A stretch of 64,000 bases of DNA from Microgenomates group bacterium. Lineage in GTDB: Bacteria > Patescibacteriota > Microgenomatia > UBA12405. The stretch is from NCBI GenBank assembly GCA_049303675.1, contig JBAQNJ010000001.1, positions 278,994 through 342,993 of the forward strand, given 5' to 3'. The notes under the pieces were generated by a model. The model was not told where the DNA came from, searched no databases, and saw only the letters and a program-made list of their open reading frames with translations. The position numbers and the translations under genes were made by a program. The stretch's first letter is position 1, and each line of letters starts with the position of its first letter. Positions 59,430 through 63,510 of the stretch are shown here, one piece after another.

Positions 59430-59693
59430 CTAGTACACCTCCTCATGTTTGCCAATTTTTAATAAATATATAGTACCTTTTTCAATTGACAACAAAATTC
59501 TGATTGATTTATTAACTGAAATTGAATACCATTTTGTTCCTGACAACTTATGCAGCCTGAGGCTTGGATGATCTACATCATGTTCGAGAAGATCTACTAT
59601 TTTTCTAATTTTAACTACATACTTTCGATTGTGTCGAGTTAAATTTCGAAGCTGCTGATCAAATTTGTTTCCGAATACAATTTTGTACACCAA
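59430..59693 (-). CDS. RelE/ParE-fold toxin
   Basis: HPSLRLHKLSGTKWYSISVNKSIRILLSIEKGTIYLLKIGKHEEVY pattern. Lies 6 nt after the antitoxin ORF. Confidence 0.7.
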   Translation of the reverse strand: MVYKIVFGNKFDQQLRNLTRHNRKYVVKIRKIVDLLEHDVDHPSLRLHKLSGTKWYSISVNKSIRILLSIEKGTIYLLKIGKHEEVY

Positions 59694-59699
59694 CTAACA

Positions 59700-59936
59700 C
59701 TATAGACTCTTGAAATAGTTGTCAATATCTTTCTTGTTTTTTAATACAAAGCCCTTACCAGCCTTCCTCTCAGCTTTTGCTTCTGACAATAATTGATCAA
59801 GCTCTGACTCCATCAAAGTTTTTCGTAGTGATGATCTAACCAGATCACTAAACGAGGCATAATAGCCCTTTTCTATTTCTTTTTCAGCCAAAGTCTTTAA
59901 TGCCTTCGGTAGCGATATATTAATTGTACTAATCAT
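59700..59936 (-). CDS. Ribbon-helix-helix (ParD/CopG-like) antitoxin
   Basis: INISLPKALKTLAEKEIEKGYYASFSDLVRSSLRKTL is RHH-like. TGCTAATAT + 6 nt + ATG. Confidence 0.65.
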   Translation of the reverse strand: MISTINISLPKALKTLAEKEIEKGYYASFSDLVRSSLRKTLMESELDQLLSEAKAERKAGKGFVLKNKKDIDNYFKSL

Positions 59937-59973
59937 GTATGAATATTAGCATAATTGACACATGAAGACAATG

Positions 59974-59982
59974 TGTTACAAT
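59974..59982 (+). promoter_or_regulatory. Extended -10 promoter (TGTTACAAT) of the Trp leader transcript
   Basis: 6 nt upstream of the leader ATG at 59989, the same geometry as other leaderless genes here. Confidence 0.6.
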
Positions 59983-59988
59983 ATCCCA

Positions 59989-60060
59989 ATGAAATTAAAC
60001 ATCTCTACAATCTGGTGGCGAGAATCTAGCCCAAGTGCGGGAGATATTAATTTGTCATAA
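59989..60060 (+). CDS. Trp-rich leader peptide MKLNISTIWWRESSPSAGDINLS
   Basis: Tandem TGG TGG at 60013-60018 in the context WWRES (E. coli TrpL: [14 protein letters not shown]). Followed by alternative antiterminator/terminator helices. Confidence 0.65.
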   Translation: MKLNISTIWWRESSPSAGDINLS

Positions 60061-60092
60061 GTTCTAGTTTTTCCAAAAATATCAATCCCGCA
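60036..60092 (+). promoter_or_regulatory. Antiterminator helix of the Trp attenuator
   Basis: TGCGGGA-GATATT (60036-60048) pairs with AATATC-AA-TCCCGCA (60078-60092): 7 + 6 bp with a 2-nt bulge. It competes for the terminator 5' arm. Confidence 0.6.
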
Positions 60093-60109
60093 ACTGCGGG
60101 ATTTTTTTT
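60084..60109 (+). terminator. Intrinsic terminator (attenuator) upstream of tRNA-Trp
   Basis: AATCCCGC-AACT-GCGGGATT followed by a T8 run. Confidence 0.8.
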
Positions 60110-60184
60110 CGTTTAAATAGGTCTAAATTTCAAACGAAGTGAAAAAATTTTGCCTATTTACACAATCCGCCTCTGGCGGAGTTT

Positions 60185-60257
60185 GGGTGGATAGTTCAGT
60201 TGGTTAGAATGCTGGTCCCCAAAACCGGCGACAATGGTTCAAGTCCATTTCCACCCA
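60185..60257 (+). tRNA. tRNA-Trp (anticodon CCA), G1-C72, A73
   Basis: Manual cloverleaf: acceptor GGGTGGA/TCCACCC, D arm GTTC-AGTTGGTTA-GAAT, anticodon stem CTGGT/ACCGG, loop CCCCAAA, T arm AATGG-TTCAAGT-CCATT, discriminator A. No encoded CCA. Confidence 0.85.
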
Positions 60258-60259
60258 CT

Positions 60260-61222
60260 ATGATTAATTATAATCTGACAGTAGATAGGATAAAAAACAG
60301 CCTGCAAAACGGGAGATGTTTCTATGGTGAAACCTATGATTCTCATGGCATGACAATTGACTCTCTAAAGTACTATTTTTTCTTATCTCTACTACATCTG
60401 ATATTAGCTAAATCAAATATCAAAACTGAGTCGACGGTGATAATCGCCGATATTGCCTCGGGTATCAACAAATCTAGTCAAAAAATAAATTGCGATATAG
60501 ATGAGGTGGGGAAAAATCGTCTAGATTATTGTGAAAAAATAAAAAAATATTTTAATTTACCTATCAAGTTTGTTTTAATGAGCAACTTTTTTGCCACCAA
60601 TCCCATTGCAAAACTAGTTGAACAATTCGAAAATGTTGGTCATAGCAACCCCAAAGTGACTGAACTTTTAGCAAAAACAGTACTCCAAAATAAAATTAAA
60701 CAAGAAAATGATTCGGGCTTTCGTTATGGTTATGAAGAAATTGCTACCGGATCATTTTTTAATATCAAAATTGGCCCACCGCGAGAAAAATATTACGACC
60801 AAGCCGCCAAAATTATTTGCAAAAAATTAAAACTGAATCAATTAAAAAGTATTTATCTGACACCCACGTTTCCTTTGGGTCAAGATTTTTCCTATTTCCT
60901 AACTCACCCCGAAATAGAAGAATTTGGACTTACACCATACAAAGCCGGTAGTAACCAAATGCAGGATTTCAGAATAACTATAAATACAACCACGATAGAA
61001 AAAGTTGAGCAACTAATCAACGATACTTACATCACTACTAATCCAAATTTACCAAATCCAATATTTGATTTACTGTTTATTGCCAATATGGCAGAAAAGT
61101 TAAAAAACAAAGAATATGAGTTTCCAGTTTACAAAAATAATATTTATATAAATCCAAAAAAACTAAAGAGTTTTGCTTTCCAGAAAATAACTAGGTTATT
61201 GATTGATCTAAAAAATCTATGA
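60260..61222 (+). CDS. Degenerate class Ic aminoacyl-tRNA-synthetase-like protein (TyrRS/TrpRS fold, HIGH and KMSKS lost)
   Basis: By-eye alignment to trpS and archaeal TyrRS: FYGETYDSHGMTIDS (HIGH region), TVIIADIASGIN, IKFVLMSNF, IKIGPPREKYYDQAAKII (compare PVGIDQHPYILLARDVAKKI), IYLTPTFPLG. ATG 2 nt after the tRNA; the track start at 60200 lies inside the tRNA. Confidence 0.45.
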   Translation: MINYNLTVDRIKNSLQNGRCFYGETYDSHGMTIDSLKYYFFLSLLHLILAKSNIKTESTVIIADIASGINKSSQKINCDIDEVGKNRLDYCEKIKKYFNLPIKFVLMSNFFATNPIAKLVEQFENVGHSNPKVTELLAKTVLQNKIKQENDSGFRYGYEEIATGSFFNIKIGPPREKYYDQAAKIICKKLKLNQLKSIYLTPTFPLGQDFSYFLTHPEIEEFGLTPYKAGSNQMQDFRITINTTTIEKVEQLINDTYITTNPNLPNPIFDLLFIANMAEKLKNKEYEFPVYKNNIYINPKKLKSFAFQKITRLLIDLKNL

Positions 61223-62385
61223 ATAGCCCACAGGCAATTGCCCAATCACATCAAGAATATCAATCTAAATTAACTATCAAGAAAAAAATTGGGGATTATT
61301 ACTTGGATCAAACCACCAAAAATGGTCTCTCTAGCCTTGATAAAATTAAGGCCTATTTACCTCTTGATCTACAGCCACTTCATTTTCGACGCAGCATCGC
61401 TATCGCCCATCTTGATCTTGAACCAATCATCGAAAAAATTGCCAAGAATCAGGAGTTTGTTATTGTTTCCGGTCTCAATCCGTCTTCTCCCTTACACCTC
61501 GGTCATAAGGCCCTGTTTGATTTACTCCTAAGTTTACAAGGACTAGGAGCCAGAGTATTTATTCCTCTGACCAACGACGAGTCGCTAGTTGATGGTAAGG
61601 TTAGTTCTTTGGCTCAGAGTCTAAACATTGCCAAAACCTCAATTCTCCCCGACATTATCAATTTTGGATTTGATCCGGACAAAACCCATATTTTTATTGA
61701 CTCCGAATATCCCCAGCTCTACAACTTCGCTATGTATCTCAGCCAACATATTTCCTTTGGACAACTTCGTCAAGTCTTTGGTGACGATTCACTGACTACT
61801 CCTGGCCAAATTTTTTATCGTGGAGTCGTTCAAATGGCGCAGATCCTGTTACCCCAACTCCCTGAATTTGGTGGTCCAAAAGTGACTTTGATTCCAGTTG
61901 GTATTGACCAGCACCCATATATATTATTGGCTCGTGATGTTGCCAAAAAAATTGGTATGATTCCACCGTCTGAGTTGGTTATTAGATTCTTGCCTAGCTT
62001 ACTAGGGCCAGAAGATAAAATGTCGGCATCAAAACCAAACACTGCTATTTACCTTAGTGACACTCCAGAGGCAATTCACAAAAAAATTAGTCGAGCCTAT
62101 ACCGGTGCTGTTTCAGCCCTTGATGTATATCAAGAACGGGGTGGTATTCCCGAAATATGCTCAGTTTTTACTCTTCTAAATTTTCATCATCCCGACGGTG
62201 TATTTGTCGAAAATATTAAACAAAGTTATTTGCATGGTCTTATTACCATGTCTGAGTTGAAAGAACTTACAACAGCTTTTATTACCGAATTAGTCACCCG
62301 CCACCAGCAAAAAAGCCCGCCTACCTCTGATCAAATCAATAAGTACATTTTAACTACACCATTAAAATCACTTTTAACCCTATGA
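61219..62385 (+). CDS. trpS: Tryptophanyl-tRNA synthetase, archaeal/eukaryal type
   Basis: PSSPLHLGH (HIGH), IPVGIDQHPY, KMSAS (KMSKS) and GGIPEIC. ATGA overlap with the upstream ORF. Confidence 0.9.
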   Translation: MNSPQAIAQSHQEYQSKLTIKKKIGDYYLDQTTKNGLSSLDKIKAYLPLDLQPLHFRRSIAIAHLDLEPIIEKIAKNQEFVIVSGLNPSSPLHLGHKALFDLLLSLQGLGARVFIPLTNDESLVDGKVSSLAQSLNIAKTSILPDIINFGFDPDKTHIFIDSEYPQLYNFAMYLSQHISFGQLRQVFGDDSLTTPGQIFYRGVVQMAQILLPQLPEFGGPKVTLIPVGIDQHPYILLARDVAKKIGMIPPSELVIRFLPSLLGPEDKMSASKPNTAIYLSDTPEAIHKKISRAYTGAVSALDVYQERGGIPEICSVFTLLNFHHPDGVFVENIKQSYLHGLITMSELKELTTAFITELVTRHQQKSPPTSDQINKYILTTPLKSLLTL

Positions 62386-62610: not shown

Positions 62611-63510
62611 GTGTTGGGCAAGTTTTTAAGTCAAAATCAAACGCATCTTTCTGCTATCGATTTAGGTGGAGTATCTCAAGCAGTAGATATCACCAAAAAA
62701 CTAGTCGCTACACCGTCGCTAGTAAAAAATACAAAAATAATTACTGTCTTTGGCGCTACCGAAGCCACACCTCTTCGGGCTCTAGCTTACCCAATCCCTG
62801 CCCTTAAGTTGGCCACGGAAATTGGAGCAGTAAATCATCAGCTTCTTCCTCAGGTTGAATTTATTTTTATGTCAGAGGCAGGAGTTTTAGCCAATGGACT
62901 CGATAGATCCAAAGTTCATCAAGAAAGGGATCTTCTGCAGAAACTAATCAAAGGCTACGTCGACGAATTTCATCCCTTACTTTCTAGTCATGTCAATTTT
63001 TCCAATGACGACAGTTTCACCCCTCAAGTCATTGCCTCATCTAGTTTCAAGAACTTAACTGATGTTCTCCAAAGTTCAAATGCTGTTAATGATTTATCCA
63101 GAATGGGCACTAGTCATGGCGGTACCAATAACTCCCTAAAATACGGTGTTCTTCACTCTTACGTCCACGACCTTGTCTTGGACGATTCAAATGTCGATCT
63201 ACTCATATCTCTCGGTGCCCAGCCCGAAAGACATTTTTACAAGACAAGACAAGTCCTCAAGCCACATCTTCCATCAGTTGATGGCTTTCGACCTGTAAAG
63301 ACAATTCAATATCTGAGTTCATTTAATGTTCCCCCTTACCAGCCATTGGCAAGTGGCGACCCTACGTTACGTCAAGTTATCAATGACTTTAATAATGTCG
63401 ATTTTGATGATCTTCAAACTCCGGTCCGACAAGCCATAAATTTATTGGCCAAGGATACATCAGGATATTCTACTCTCGCTAACTTTCTCAAAGAAAATCA
63501 AAATATTTAA
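62611..63510 (+). CDS. Second degenerate class Ic synthetase-like protein
   Basis: ITVFGATEATPLRALAYPI (HIGH region without His), VEFIFMSEAGVLANGLD, VNFSNDDSF, LKYGVLHSYVHDLVL....LLISLGAQPERHFYKTRQVL (compare GIDQHPYILLARDVA). GTG start; the frame is open for 150 nt upstream without a start codon. Confidence 0.4.
   Translation: MLGKFLSQNQTHLSAIDLGGVSQAVDITKKLVATPSLVKNTKIITVFGATEATPLRALAYPIPALKLATEIGAVNHQLLPQVEFIFMSEAGVLANGLDRSKVHQERDLLQKLIKGYVDEFHPLLSSHVNFSNDDSFTPQVIASSSFKNLTDVLQSSNAVNDLSRMGTSHGGTNNSLKYGVLHSYVHDLVLDDSNVDLLISLGAQPERHFYKTRQVLKPHLPSVDGFRPVKTIQYLSSFNVPPYQPLASGDPTLRQVINDFNNVDFDDLQTPVRQAINLLAKDTSGYSTLANFLKENQNI

What the first reader, a model, noticed from the sequence alone, without database searches (positions are those of the whole stretch)
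59974..60109. TrpL-like leader peptide with competing antiterminator/terminator helices upstream of tRNA-Trp and trpS
A 23-codon ORF (59989-60060, MKLNISTIWWRESSPSAGDINLS) begins 6 nt after an extended -10 box (TGTTACAAT), so it is a leaderless transcript.
- It has tandem Trp codons (TGG TGG, 60013-60018) in the context WWRES. The E. coli trp leader peptide is [14 protein letters not shown].
- 24 nt after its stop lies a clean intrinsic terminator: AATCCCGC-AACT-GCGGGATT plus T8 (60084-60109).
- The terminator 5' arm and flanking bases (AATATC-AA-TCCCGCA, 60078-60092) can instead pair with TGCGGGA-GATATT (60036-60048), giving 7 + 6 bp with a 2-nt bulge. That segment is nearly identical to the terminator 3' arm and lies in the last codons of the leader ORF.

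The geometry fits ribosome-mediated attenuation. A ribosome reaching the stop at 60058-60060 would cover 60036-60048, so the terminator forms. A ribosome stalled on the Trp codons would leave that segment free, so the antiterminator forms and transcription reads through.

The downstream cargo is not a trp biosynthesis operon. It is tRNA-Trp, TrpRS, two synthetase-like paralogues and a YbaK-like gene. This logic is normally served by T-boxes or, for pheST, by the pheM leader. I know of no description of it in CPR bacteria.
Basis: partly seen in the sequence, partly recalled or inferred. Interest (0 to 1): 0.85.

Follow-up and report, generated by a model that had tools for sequence, protein, structure and literature searches.

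The report
Tryptophan-codon attenuator before tRNA-Trp and trpS
A short leaderless reading frame with two adjacent tryptophan codons, followed by competing RNA hairpins, sits in front of the tRNA-Trp and tryptophanyl-tRNA synthetase genes of a Shapirobacteria (CPR) genome; it is conserved in relatives and looks like a classical ribosome-sensed transcription attenuator, a well-known mechanism found here in a new lineage and controlling an unusual cargo.

Summary
A near-consensus promoter (TTGACA-16-TGnTACAAT) ends 6 nt before the ATG of a 23-codon ORF with in-frame TGG TGG. A strong intrinsic terminator follows, then tRNA-Trp, a synthetase-like paralogue and TrpRS.

I found 13 distinct leaders: ten Shapirobacteria-type relatives of the window and two lineages of a more distant clade. 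All keep a 23-25 codon ORF with WW or WWW, a terminator, and a segment 12-18 nt after the last Trp codon that pairs with the terminator 5' arm.
- That segment changes together with the terminator. Cognate duplexes average -18.0 kcal/mol against -13.7 for non-cognate ones (permutation 0/20000).
- The peptide is otherwise not conserved.
- Untranslated RNA folds into a 1:2 hairpin plus terminator. With a ribosome footprint on the Trp codons the antiterminator forms.
- In some relatives tRNA-Trp starts 4-12 nt after the T-tract, so it can only be expressed by read-through.
- Sister lineages carry a Trp T-box at the same place, and some add a TrpR-like gene.

The mechanism is textbook. Leader-peptide attenuators of trpS and leaderless leaders are described in Streptomyces and mycobacteria. 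It is a new member of a known kind; the CPR host and the tRNA cargo are new. There is no experimental proof.

The parts
59955..59960 (+). -35 hexamer TTGACA of the leader promoter
   Evidence: TTGACA-16-TACAAT, 11/12 with TG. L043 has a 12/12 equivalent.
59974..59982 (+). Extended -10 box TGTTACAAT. It ends 6 nt before the ATG, so the transcript is leaderless or nearly so.
   Evidence: TGnTAnAAT lies 6-9 nt before the ATG, with no Shine-Dalgarno sequence, in 11 of 12 Shapirobacteria-type relatives.
59989..60060 (+). Leader peptide ORF, 23 codons plus TAA (MKLNISTIWWRESSPSAGDINLS)
   Evidence: In-frame homologues of 23-25 codons occur in 12 other distinct loci. Length differences are multiples of 3, and only WW is conserved in the peptide.
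60013..60018 (+). Tandem Trp codons TGG TGG, the proposed sensing site
   Evidence: Invariant columns in alignment A2. The L011 group has WWW, and the distant L017, L050 and L053 clade has WW.
59989..60006 (+). Segment 1, the 5' strand of the anti-antiterminator. It pairs with 60040-60058 (59989-92:60055-58, 59993-98:60047-52, 60001-06:60040-45).
   Evidence: Free-RNA MFE. 81.8% of cells are paired on A2, against 39-62% for slid controls. Shuffle z is -1.0 to -4.1 in the Shapirobacteria clade.
60036..60048 (+). Segment 2, TGCGGGAGATATT. It is the 5' strand of the antiterminator and also the partner of segment 1. It lies in codons 16-20 of the leader ORF.
   Evidence: It begins 17 nt after the last Trp codon (12-18 nt in all 12 lineages). 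It co-varies with the terminator.
60074..60092 (+). Segment 3, the 3' strand of the antiterminator (CAAA, AATATC, then TCCCGCA). It overlaps the terminator 5' arm.
   Evidence: 17 predicted pairs, of which 6 engage the terminator 5' arm and 1 the loop.
60084..60109 (+). Intrinsic terminator (segments 3:4): AATCCCGC-AACT-GCGGGATT, with the T8 tract at 60102-60109
   Evidence: 8 pairs, 5 G-C. -12.5 kcal/mol alone. Present in all relatives.
60110..60184 (+). Spacer between the terminator and the tRNA. It has a conserved block AGGTCTAAATTT (about 60119-60130) and the hairpin TCCGCC-TCT-GGCGGA (60166-60180). Function unknown, and it is not required for the device.
   Evidence: Conserved only in L044 and L046. 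It is absent in L001, L045 and L011, where the tRNA follows the T-tract by 4-12 nt. No promoter-like site was flagged.
60185..60258 (+). tRNA-Trp (anticodon CCA), the first cargo
   Evidence: ARAGORN. Rfam tRNA 63.1 bits.
60260..61222 (+). ORF1, 320 aa, a class Ic (TyrRS/TrpRS-fold) synthetase-like paralogue. Its ATG lies 2 nt after the tRNA discriminator base.
   Evidence: No significant Pfam hit. AF2 pLDDT 85.5. Foldseek against PDB TyrRS gives E about 1e-9 and TM 0.66. Always between tRNA-Trp and trpS.
61219..62385 (+). TrpRS (trpS). Its start overlaps the ORF1 stop.
   Evidence: PF00579, E = 7.4e-34. 83, 76 and 68% identical to Shapirobacteria TrpRS.

Best explanation
This is a classical ribosome-mediated (leader-peptide) transcription attenuator. 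It makes transcription of the tRNA-Trp / synthetase-like ORF1 / trpS operon depend on the supply of charged tRNA-Trp.

How it would work:
- Transcription starts at or next to the ATG (59989), so a 70S ribosome loads on the leaderless 5' end.
- When Trp-tRNA-Trp is plentiful, the ribosome runs through the two Trp codons (60013-60018) and over segment 2 to the stop codon. After release, segment 1 re-pairs with segment 2. Segment 3 is then free to form the local 3:4 terminator hairpin (60084-60103 plus T8), and RNA polymerase stops before the tRNA.
- When charged tRNA-Trp is scarce, the ribosome stalls with a Trp codon in its A site. It covers segment 1 but ends about 5 nt short of segment 2. Segment 2 (60036-60048) pairs with segment 3 (60074-92) as soon as segment 3 is made, the terminator 5' arm is sequestered, and polymerase reads through. 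The cell then makes more tRNA-Trp and TrpRS.
- Without translation, 1:2 plus 3:4 form, so the default state is off.

Shown by computation: the sequence elements, their conservation, the co-variation, and the alternative folds. Inferred: the transcription start site, translation of the ORF, coupling of the ribosome to RNA polymerase, and the regulatory response.
For: 1. Anatomy is verified in the window.

2. Conservation. There are 13 distinct leaders, counting L011 and L014 (same group) separately.
- They are the window, L001, L002 (= L007-10), L041, L042, L043, L044, L045, L046, the L011 group (L003, L011-14, L039), L014, L017 and L050/L053.
- All have an in-frame WW or WWW, a 23-25 codon ORF, and a terminator directly upstream of tRNA-Trp.
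- TrpRS identity to the window falls to 68% and ORF1 identity to 46%.
- Apart from WW, the peptide is not conserved. That is the signature of regulatory leader peptides.

3. Geometry. The antiterminator 5' strand starts 12-18 nt after the last Trp codon in all 12 lineages. This is just beyond a ribosome's 3' edge.

4. Folding.
- Free RNA gives 1:2 plus terminator in 12/13.
- With the footprint on the Trp codon and segment 4 not yet made, segment 2 pairs with 5-8 nt of the terminator 5' arm in 13/13, at -11.6 to -22.3 kcal/mol.
- The full-length MFE with a realistic footprint lacks the terminator in 9/13.

5. Co-variation.
- Terminator sequences differ between lineages (TCCCGCA, CTCCCGC, CCCACTAC, CCCCGAGC, CCGGC, TCACCCC, GCTCCC) and segment 2 changes to match.
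- Cognate seg2:seg3 duplexes average -18.0 against -13.7 kcal/mol for non-cognate ones, permutation 0/20000.
- Shuffle z-scores are -1.8 to -4.5.

6. Dependence on read-through. In L001, L045 and the L011 group the tRNA starts 4-12 nt after the T-tract, and no promoter-like site lies in between.

7. Same locus, other Trp sensors. Rfam reports sub-threshold T-box matches in L018 and L019 (E = 8.5e-7 and 2.4e-4, below GA 93). These two and L015 carry a loop AAGGUUGGAA containing UGG, read by eye. A PF01371 Trp_repressor gene lies upstream in L050 and L053 by Pfam. In L005 and L017 a TrpR/YerC-like reading was recognised only by eye. So this operon is a target of Trp-responsive control.

8. The Rfam Trp_leader model gives repeated sub-threshold hits exactly on the leader: window 24.3, L017 29.7, L045 27.7, L001 26.9 and L002 22.5 bits.
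Against: - There is no transcript, ribosome-profiling or genetic data, and the organism is uncultured.
- At equilibrium the terminator is more stable than the antiterminator by 2-7 kcal/mol in several sequences (window -17.8 against -15.4, L045 -18.7 against -11.6, L017 -20.5 against -15.2). The antiterminator must therefore win kinetically.
- With a realistic footprint at the stop codon, the MFE of the window, L001 and L011 still lacks the terminator. The G+C core of segment 2 lies behind the ribosome, so the 'Trp sufficient' branch relies on sterics, on re-formation of 1:2, or on the speed of the local hairpin.
- Column-wise covariation on a MAFFT alignment is weak. The antiterminator covariation score is reached by 9/500 shuffles, the other measures are not significant, and the 1:2 helix is not significant. 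The core is conserved and the AU-rich part is out of register.
- The 1:2 helix is not supported in the L011 group, L017 or L050.
- In the window, a 75-nt spacer could hide a weak second promoter.
Confidence: 0.85

Rival explanations
1. An RNA-only or protein- or tRNA-mediated switch. The UGGUGG and the alternative helices are read directly by uncharged tRNA-Trp (T-box-like codon-anticodon contact) or by a Trp-activated RNA-binding protein. On this view the ORF is incidental.
For: Sister lineages use a T-box at the same locus. A TrpR-like gene accompanies the leader in the L017, L050 and L053 clade. UGG is complementary to the CCA anticodon.
Against: The window gives no T-box hit even at E <= 10. 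There is no stem I, K-turn or T-box motif. The ATG is kept 6-9 nt from a -10 box. The frame, the ORF length (23-25 codons) and the stop are conserved, with indels only in multiples of 3. The distance from the Trp codons to segment 2 fits a ribosome footprint. TrpR-family proteins bind DNA (general knowledge).
Confidence: 0.06
2. An independent small gene. The promoter, 23-codon ORF and terminator form a self-contained unit encoding a small protein or a roughly 120-nt sRNA. tRNA-Trp and trpS are expressed from their own promoter, and the terminator is simply a full stop.
For: The window, L044 and L046 have a 75-100 nt conserved spacer between the terminator and the tRNA. L044 and L046 have a TAAAAT-like hexamer there, read by eye. 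Terminated attenuator RNAs can act in trans in other bacteria (rnTrpL, PMC6614838).
Against: The spacer is absent in L001, L045, the L011 group and others, where the tRNA begins 4-12 nt after the T-tract. No promoter-like site was flagged there. The peptide is not conserved except for WW. The conserved and co-varying 2:3 pairing has no role in a simple terminator. The unit is always linked to tRNA-Trp.
Confidence: 0.05
3. Chance or an artefact of relatedness. The WW ORF and the alternative pairing are conserved only because the genomes are close relatives.
For: Several loci are near-identical (L002 = L007-10; L011, L012, L039). Column-wise covariation statistics are weak.
Against: Flanking sequence is unalignable between loci while the leader is kept. 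The L011, L013 and L014 leaders are identical from WWW to the terminator, yet their upstream sequences diverge. The distant clade L017, L050 and L053 has an unrelated peptide and an unrelated terminator sequence but the same WW, spacing and matching segment 2. The cognate against non-cognate test is not inflated by relatedness.
Confidence: 0.03

Closest known systems
E. coli trp operon attenuator (trpL; Rfam RF00513 Trp_leader)
   Same: A short ORF with tandem Trp codons, and three overlapping helices (1:2, 2:3 antiterminator, 3:4 terminator plus U-tract). The gap of about 14 nt from the Trp codons to segment 2 is comparable to the 12-18 nt found here. The default is termination without translation. 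RF00513 gives weak hits on the leader (22-30 bits).
   Different: All scores are below the gathering threshold of 41. The leader is leaderless instead of driven by a Shine-Dalgarno sequence. Segment 2 lies inside the ORF, upstream of the stop codon. The cargo is tRNA-Trp, a synthetase paralogue and TrpRS, not trpEDCBA. The host is a CPR bacterium. There is no sequence homology beyond the generic features.
Leader-peptide attenuators of aminoacyl-tRNA synthetase genes (E. coli pheM-pheST; Streptomyces trpS, leuS, alaS, thrS)
   Same: Ribosome stalling on cognate codons controls read-through into the cognate synthetase gene. Attenuators were predicted upstream of trpS and leuS in Streptomyces (PMC1262725). 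S. lividans has leader peptides for trpS, leuS, alaS and thrS, and a leaderless trpL1 with WWW (PMC8079986). Experimental proof for S. coelicolor trpRS1 (Vecchione and Sello 2010) is cited from my own recollection and was not found in the searchable library.
   Different: Here the first gene behind the terminator is the cognate tRNA itself. The operon also carries synthetase-like paralogues. The phylum is different, and homology to the actinobacterial leaders was not tested.
Leaderless polycysteine short-ORF attenuators of mycobacteria (bioRxiv 10.1101/834739)
   Same: A leaderless short ORF at the 5' end of an operon, whose translation senses the supply of one amino acid and attenuates downstream expression.
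   Different: Those use Cys codons and a cysteine-metabolism cargo, and the mechanism described there is not a canonical intrinsic terminator/antiterminator pair in every case. Here there are Trp codons and a clear intrinsic terminator.
T-box riboswitch (RF00230) upstream of trpS
   Same: It senses the tRNA-Trp charging state and controls read-through of a terminator before trpS. It occupies the orthologous position in related Microgenomates (L015, L018, L019).
   Different: A T-box reads uncharged tRNA directly, without a ribosome. The window has no T-box features. This is analogy, or replacement, and not membership.

Membership tests
Ribosome-mediated (leader-peptide) transcription attenuators, as a mechanistic class | A short ORF enriched in codons for the amino acid relevant to the regulated genes | tested here: met
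   In-frame TGG TGG in a 23-codon ORF upstream of tRNA-Trp and trpS. WW or WWW is found in all 13 distinct leaders.
Ribosome-mediated (leader-peptide) transcription attenuators, as a mechanistic class | An intrinsic terminator between the leader ORF and the first regulated gene | tested here: met
   60084-60109. Present in all relatives.
Ribosome-mediated (leader-peptide) transcription attenuators, as a mechanistic class | A mutually exclusive antiterminator that uses the terminator 5' arm, supported by conservation or co-variation | tested here: met
   (13/13 predicted). (cognate against non-cognate, 0/20000). (shuffle z -1.8 to -4.5). Column-wise counts on the MAFFT alignment give only weak support.
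Ribosome-mediated (leader-peptide) transcription attenuators, as a mechanistic class | Spacing such that a ribosome stalled on the regulatory codons leaves the antiterminator strand free, while a ribosome that moves on prevents it | tested here: inconclusive
   The first half is met: the gap is 12-18 nt, and the stalled-footprint MFE lacks the terminator in 9/13. The second half is only partly met: with the footprint at the stop codon the terminator is in the MFE in 10/13, but not in the window itself.
Ribosome-mediated (leader-peptide) transcription attenuators, as a mechanistic class | An anti-antiterminator (1:2) giving termination without translation | tested here: met
   The free-RNA MFE is 1:2 plus terminator in the window and the Shapirobacteria clade. 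81.8% of cells are paired against 39-62% for slid controls. It is not supported in L011, L017 or L050.
Ribosome-mediated (leader-peptide) transcription attenuators, as a mechanistic class | Translation of the leader, and amino-acid-dependent read-through in vivo or in vitro | not testable with these tools
   No expression data; the organism is uncultured.
Rfam RF00513 Trp_leader (proteobacterial trp operon leader) | A covariance-model score at or above the gathering threshold (41 bits) | tested here: not met
   Window 24.3 bits, E = 0.022. The best relative is L017 at 29.7 bits.
Rfam RF00513 Trp_leader (proteobacterial trp operon leader) | Located upstream of tryptophan biosynthesis genes | tested here: not met
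   The downstream genes are tRNA-Trp, a synthetase-like ORF1 and TrpRS.
T-box leader (RF00230) | Stem I with a specifier loop, plus the conserved T-box antiterminator sequence | tested here: not met
   No T-box hit in 59600-60600 at E <= 10. In contrast, L018 scores 43.6 bits and L019 34 bits.
Actinobacterial trpS and leuS attenuators (PMC1262725, PMC8079986) | Sequence or structure homology to those leaders | not tested
   No actinobacterial leader sequences were fetched. The relation claimed is mechanistic analogy only.

The most novel reading that the evidence does not exclude
The cognate tRNA gene is itself placed behind a ribosome-sensed attenuator. On this reading tRNA-Trp and its synthetase form a closed homeostatic loop: charged tRNA-Trp controls transcription of tRNA-Trp. 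In lineages where the tRNA starts 4-12 nt after the T-tract, the tRNA can only be made by read-through.

The same operon has switched between three Trp sensors within Microgenomates: a T-box, a WW leader peptide, and a TrpR-like repressor with or without a leader. This makes it a natural experiment in the interchange of regulatory devices.

It would also be the first evidence that CPR/Patescibacteria use transcription-translation coupling for gene control. I found no description of any of this in the searchable literature.
Probability: 0.45. Interest if true: 0.65.

Novelty: new member of a known kind. Interest (0 to 1): 0.5.

Why it matters
- It gives a concrete, testable regulatory element in an uncultured, genome-reduced lineage. 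Almost nothing is known about gene regulation in Candidatus Shapirobacteria (CPR/Patescibacteria).
- It implies that these organisms couple translation to transcription, and that they tune tRNA-Trp and TrpRS supply to the charging state.
- The comparison set shows one operon governed by a T-box, by a leader peptide, or with a TrpR-like gene in neighbouring lineages. This is useful material for studying how functionally equivalent RNA sensors replace one another.
- It provides a seed alignment for a new leader family absent from Rfam.
- It does not change the understanding of attenuation itself.

Tried and rejected
- Rfam at gathering thresholds gave only tRNAs. The Trp_leader and T-box evidence is all sub-threshold.
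- Column-wise covariation on a MAFFT alignment is weak. The G+C core is invariant and the AU-rich half of the antiterminator and the terminators are out of register. I replaced it with per-sequence constrained folds and a cognate against non-cognate duplex test. I did not build a covariance model, because an alignment fitted to the structure would bias the counts.
- The first masking scheme hid everything 5' of the ribosome and overstated the 'stop codon' case. Redone with a 29-nt footprint, it is less clean for the window.
- An internal promoter within the leader (TTGTCA...AAAAAT, 9/12) is not conserved in L001, L044 or L011 and was rejected.
- A second promoter in the spacer 60110-60184 was not flagged by the scan, and the spacer is absent in many relatives. 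It is not excluded for the window.
- The bidirectional-terminator reading was rejected. The minus-strand tail is weaker, and no minus-strand gene ends there.
- A scan for other leader-peptide attenuators in the 64-kb window found none.
- A sequence search of ORF1 against the PDB found nothing. Only the fold search was informative.
- Literature searches for trpRS1 attenuation, and for CPR or Patescibacteria combined with T-box or leader peptide, returned nothing.
Full report
**1. The observation.**
- TTGACA (59955-59960), a 16-nt spacer and TG-T-TACAAT (59974-59982) form the best sigma-70-like site in the last 5.5 kb of the window (11/12 with an extended -10).
- The ATG at 59989 lies 6 nt after the -10 box, with no Shine-Dalgarno sequence.
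- The ORF 59989-60060 encodes MKLNISTIWWRESSPSAGDINLS, with TGG TGG at 60013-60018.
- The hairpin AATCCCGC-AACT-GCGGGATT (60084-60103) runs into T8 (60102-60109) and is the strongest terminator-like site in the region.
- tRNA-Trp(CCA) is at 60185-60258.
- A 320-aa ORF starts 2 nt after the tRNA discriminator base. TrpRS (PF00579, E = 7e-34) follows, with overlapping stop and start.

Upstream genes are on the other strand: a ParE/RelE-type toxin, an RHH antitoxin, a nuclease and L25. The promoter therefore belongs to the leader.

**2. Where the window comes from.**
TrpRS is 83, 76 and 68% identical to proteins of three Candidatus Shapirobacteria MAGs. ORF1 is identical to an NCBI protein of a 'Microgenomates group bacterium' on a 998-kb contig.

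**3. Conservation.**
Three searches supplied the comparison loci:
- the TrpRS scan of species-representative genomes;
- an ORF1-profile scan of metagenomes;
- twelve exact-protein look-ups.

Among them are 13 distinct leaders with the same design.

| Locus | Leader peptide |
|---|---|
| window | MKLNISTIWWRESSPSAGDINLS |
| L001 | MKLIVSQSWWCNSSLLAGDVLIS |
| L002 (= L007-10) | MKLNVSTSWWQNNGLLVGDFNLA |
| L041 | MKLNICSTWWQNNSLLVGDFNLA |
| L042 | MKLNISTTWWQNNSLLVGDINLA |
| L043 | MKLIMSQTWWQNKSLVVGDVVLA |
| L044 | MTINLSLTWWQLSSAPAGDIDRS |
| L045 | MTKLIVSTTWWRNLSPKAGDIYLS |
| L046 / L047 | MKLIVSSTWWQVLSPCAGDIDWS |
| L011 group (L003, L011-14, L039) | MLSKTVSQIWWWNNKPQAGGMVTA and variants |
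| L017 (distant clade) | MFKQRIILRSDKVWWAPQLARGD |
| L050 / L051 (distant clade) | MYKNKQNLVTSDDWWNPTLRIGSCF |
| L053 (distant clade) | MYKNKQNLLVIDVWWNPTLRIGSYF |

- Only WW or WWW, the ORF length (23-25 codons), the stop position and the nucleotides GGGAG are conserved.
- Length differences are multiples of three.
- Within the L011 group the sequence from WWW to the terminator is identical, while the DNA upstream of the promoter is unrelated. That indicates selection on the leader itself.
- The recurring 'AGD / VGD / RGD / AGG' in the peptides is the translation of the RNA motif GCGGGAGAU. It is not a peptide motif.

**4. Leaderless start.**
In 11 of 12 Shapirobacteria-type loci a TGnTAnAAT box ends 6-9 nt before the ATG, and the intervening bases are pyrimidine-rich, with no Shine-Dalgarno sequence. 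L043 has a perfect TTGACA-16-TGcTATAAT.

In the distant clade (L017, L050, L053) the leader ATG instead overlaps the stop codon of a TrpR-like gene (AAAATGTATAA). That gene is a Pfam Trp_repressor (PF01371) match in L050 and L053 and was recognised by eye in L017. The overlap suggests translational coupling.

**5. RNA structures.**
- *Free RNA.* It folds into a long 1:2 hairpin plus the terminator in 12 of 13 sequences. Codons 1-6 pair with GGAGAU...CAU at the end of the ORF, and the start AUG pairs with the CAU just before the stop. For the window the energy is -27.0 kcal/mol.
- *Ribosome on a Trp codon, segment 4 not yet transcribed.* The MFE pairs segment 2 with 5-8 nt of the terminator 5' arm in 13/13, at -11.6 to -22.3 kcal/mol.
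- *Realistic 29-nt footprint, full-length RNA.* The terminator is absent from the MFE in 9/13 when the ribosome sits on the Trp codons. It is present in 10/13 when the ribosome sits at the stop codon, and in 12/13 without a ribosome.
- *Spacing.* The antiterminator strand begins 12-18 nt after the last Trp codon in every lineage. That is just beyond the leading edge of a ribosome with that codon in the A site, and close to the roughly 14 nt of E. coli trpL (my recollection).

Caveats:
- At equilibrium the terminator beats the antiterminator by 2-7 kcal/mol in several sequences.
- For the window, L001 and L011 the stop-codon footprint does not restore the terminator in the MFE. The G+C core UGCGGGA lies behind the ribosome.
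- A helix closing a loop that contains a 70S ribosome is sterically doubtful. After release, 1:2 re-forms. These last steps are inferences, not results.

**6. Is the alternative pairing selected?**
- *Shuffles.* Against dinucleotide shuffles of segment 2, the seg2:seg3 duplex has z = -1.8 to -4.5 in all 12 lineages. Ten of the 12 have at most 15 of 500 shuffles as good, and the window has 0/500.
- *Matching changes.* The terminators differ between lineages and segment 2 follows. Pairs are written segment 2 / segment 3, both 5' to 3':

| Locus | Segment 2 / segment 3 |
|---|---|
| window | UGCGGGA / UCCCGCA |
| L044 | GCGGGAG / CUCCCGC |
| L043 | GUAGUGGG / CCCACUAC (reaching into the terminator loop) |
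| L041 | UGCUUG-GGG / CCC-CGAGCA |
| L017 | GGGGUGA / UCACCCC |
| L050 | GGGAGC / GCUCCC |

- *Cognate against non-cognate.* Cognate duplexes average -18.0 kcal/mol and non-cognate ones -13.7. None of 20000 permutations reaches the cognate mean. Relatedness makes this test conservative, not liberal.
- *Column-wise counts.* Counts on a MAFFT alignment are much weaker. The core never varies and the AU-rich part is misaligned. I report this as a limitation.
- *The 1:2 helix.* It is supported in the Shapirobacteria clade (81.8% of cells paired against 39-62% for slid registers; permutation p = 0.013). It is not supported in L011, L017 or L050.

**7. The tRNA depends on read-through.**
- In L001, L045 and the L011 group, tRNA-Trp begins 4-12 nt after the T-tract.
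- No promoter-like site lies between the leader promoter and the tRNA in L001, L011 or L043, or in the window's 75-nt spacer.
- That spacer is conserved only in L044 and L046 and is dispensable for the design.

**8. The same locus in other lineages.**
- *T-box loci.* ORF1-trpS operons of more distant Microgenomates carry a T-box where the leader sits.
  - Rfam hits: L018 43.6 bits, E = 8.5e-7; L019 E = 2.4e-4. Both are below the gathering threshold because stem I is very short.
  - L015, L018 and L019 share the loop AAGGUUGGAA containing UGG followed by A, as expected for a Trp specifier. I read this by eye.
  - L020 and the Beckwithbacteria loci L048 and L049 have T-box-like AAGGTGGCACC motifs.
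- *TrpR-like gene only.* L005 (Dojkabacteria) has only a gene that I read by eye as TrpR/YerC-like before the tRNA.
- *Neither device.* L052, L054, L055 and L021 show neither.

The operon is thus a recurrent target of Trp-responsive control by interchangeable devices. This independently supports the functional reading.

**9. Cargo.**
ORF1 has no Pfam family and no sequence match in the PDB. A confident AlphaFold model (pLDDT 85.5) matches archaeal and eukaryotic TyrRS structures (Foldseek E about 1e-9, TM 0.66, 12-16% identity). Its function is unknown.

**10. Comparison with known systems.**
- It works like the E. coli trp attenuator, but it is not a member of Rfam RF00513. Scores are 22-30 bits against a threshold of 41, the cargo differs, and the start is leaderless.
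- Attenuation of synthetase genes by cognate-codon leader peptides is known: E. coli pheM-pheST (general knowledge), predicted trpS and leuS attenuators in Streptomyces (PMC1262725), and S. lividans leaders for alaS, thrS, trpS and leuS together with a leaderless WWW trpL1 (PMC8079986).
- Leaderless short-ORF attenuators are described in mycobacteria (bioRxiv 10.1101/834739).
- I found no paper combining CPR or Patescibacteria with leader peptides or T-boxes, and none describing a tRNA gene as the first cargo of such an attenuator. The library is incomplete, so this is absence of evidence only.

**11. Verdict.**
The most likely mechanism is classical ribosome-mediated attenuation sensing charged tRNA-Trp (confidence about 0.85).

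It is a new family-level member of a well-known kind. Three features are noteworthy but not paradigm-changing: the CPR host, tRNA-Trp as cargo, and replacement by a T-box in sister lineages. Interest is 0.5.

Noticed in passing
window 60257-60262; L001 5042-5047; L002 5039-5044: The ORF1 ATG lies 2 nt after the tRNA-Trp discriminator base (…TCCACCCA-CT-ATG), with no Shine-Dalgarno sequence. Processing of the tRNA 3' end would leave a nearly leaderless ORF1-trpS mRNA. This is a punctuation-like arrangement, conserved in the Shapirobacteria loci.
   Followed up: partly
window 60260-61222 (ORF1): This conserved 320-aa protein has no Pfam family but a confident TyrRS/TrpRS-like (class Ic) predicted fold. 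The canonical HIGH and KMSKS motifs are not recognisable (invariant YGETYD, KAGSN). It always lies between tRNA-Trp and trpS in Microgenomates. It may be a pseudo-synthetase or an accessory factor.
   Followed up: partly
L005 4526-4772; L017 about 580-712; L050 2042-2293; L053 1192-1443: A TrpR-like gene sits directly upstream of the tRNA-Trp/trpS operon in Dojkabacteria and in an unnamed clade. It is a Pfam PF01371 Trp_repressor match in L050 and L053, and was read by eye in L005 and L017. In L017, L050 and L053 its stop overlaps the ATG of the WW leader. That would mean dual control (repressor plus attenuator), as at the E. coli trp operon but applied to tRNA and synthetase genes.
   Followed up: partly
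L015 2517-2800; L018 2611-2788; L019 2534-2753; L020 1-214; L048 about 2130-2420: Trp T-box leaders with an unusually short stem I (loop AAGGUUGGAA) sit upstream of a tRNA-Trp gene. They score below Rfam's gathering threshold. A T-box whose first cargo is the cognate tRNA gene is itself unusual.
   Followed up: partly
window 60110-60184: This 75-nt spacer between the terminator and the tRNA is conserved only in L044 and L046. It contains a near-palindromic block (AGGTCTAAATTT; L046 has TTTAGGTCTAAA and L044 the reverse-complement centre TTTAGACCTAAA) and a G+C hairpin TCCGCC-TCT-GGCGGA (60166-60180) 4 nt before the tRNA. Its function is unknown; it could be an operator, a processing signal or an insertion remnant.
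   Followed up: partly
window 59989-59992 with 60055-60058: The leader's start codon AUG pairs with the conserved CAU immediately before the stop codon (xCAUAA is invariant in the Shapirobacteria leaders). The untranslated leader therefore closes on itself end to end.
   Followed up: partly
window 59430-59936 (- strand): A ParE/RelE-like toxin with an RHH antitoxin pair lies immediately upstream and divergent from the leader promoter. It is present in L042 and L043, replaced by PIN/RHH in L048, and absent in others. This is a variable toxin-antitoxin insertion hotspot next to the operon.
   Followed up: no
L001 10391-10464: A tRNA-Ile with anticodon UAU in a Shapirobacteria genome. This is an uncommon way of reading AUA in bacteria.
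   Followed up: no
L041 3888-4752; L043 4708-6023; L048 4718-5713: Downstream of trpS, relatives encode a further class Ib/Ic synthetase-like protein, in some fused to a YbaK-type editing domain (PF04073 plus PF00579). The window's 299-aa ORF at 62611-63510 has no Pfam hit and may be the diverged counterpart.
   Followed up: no
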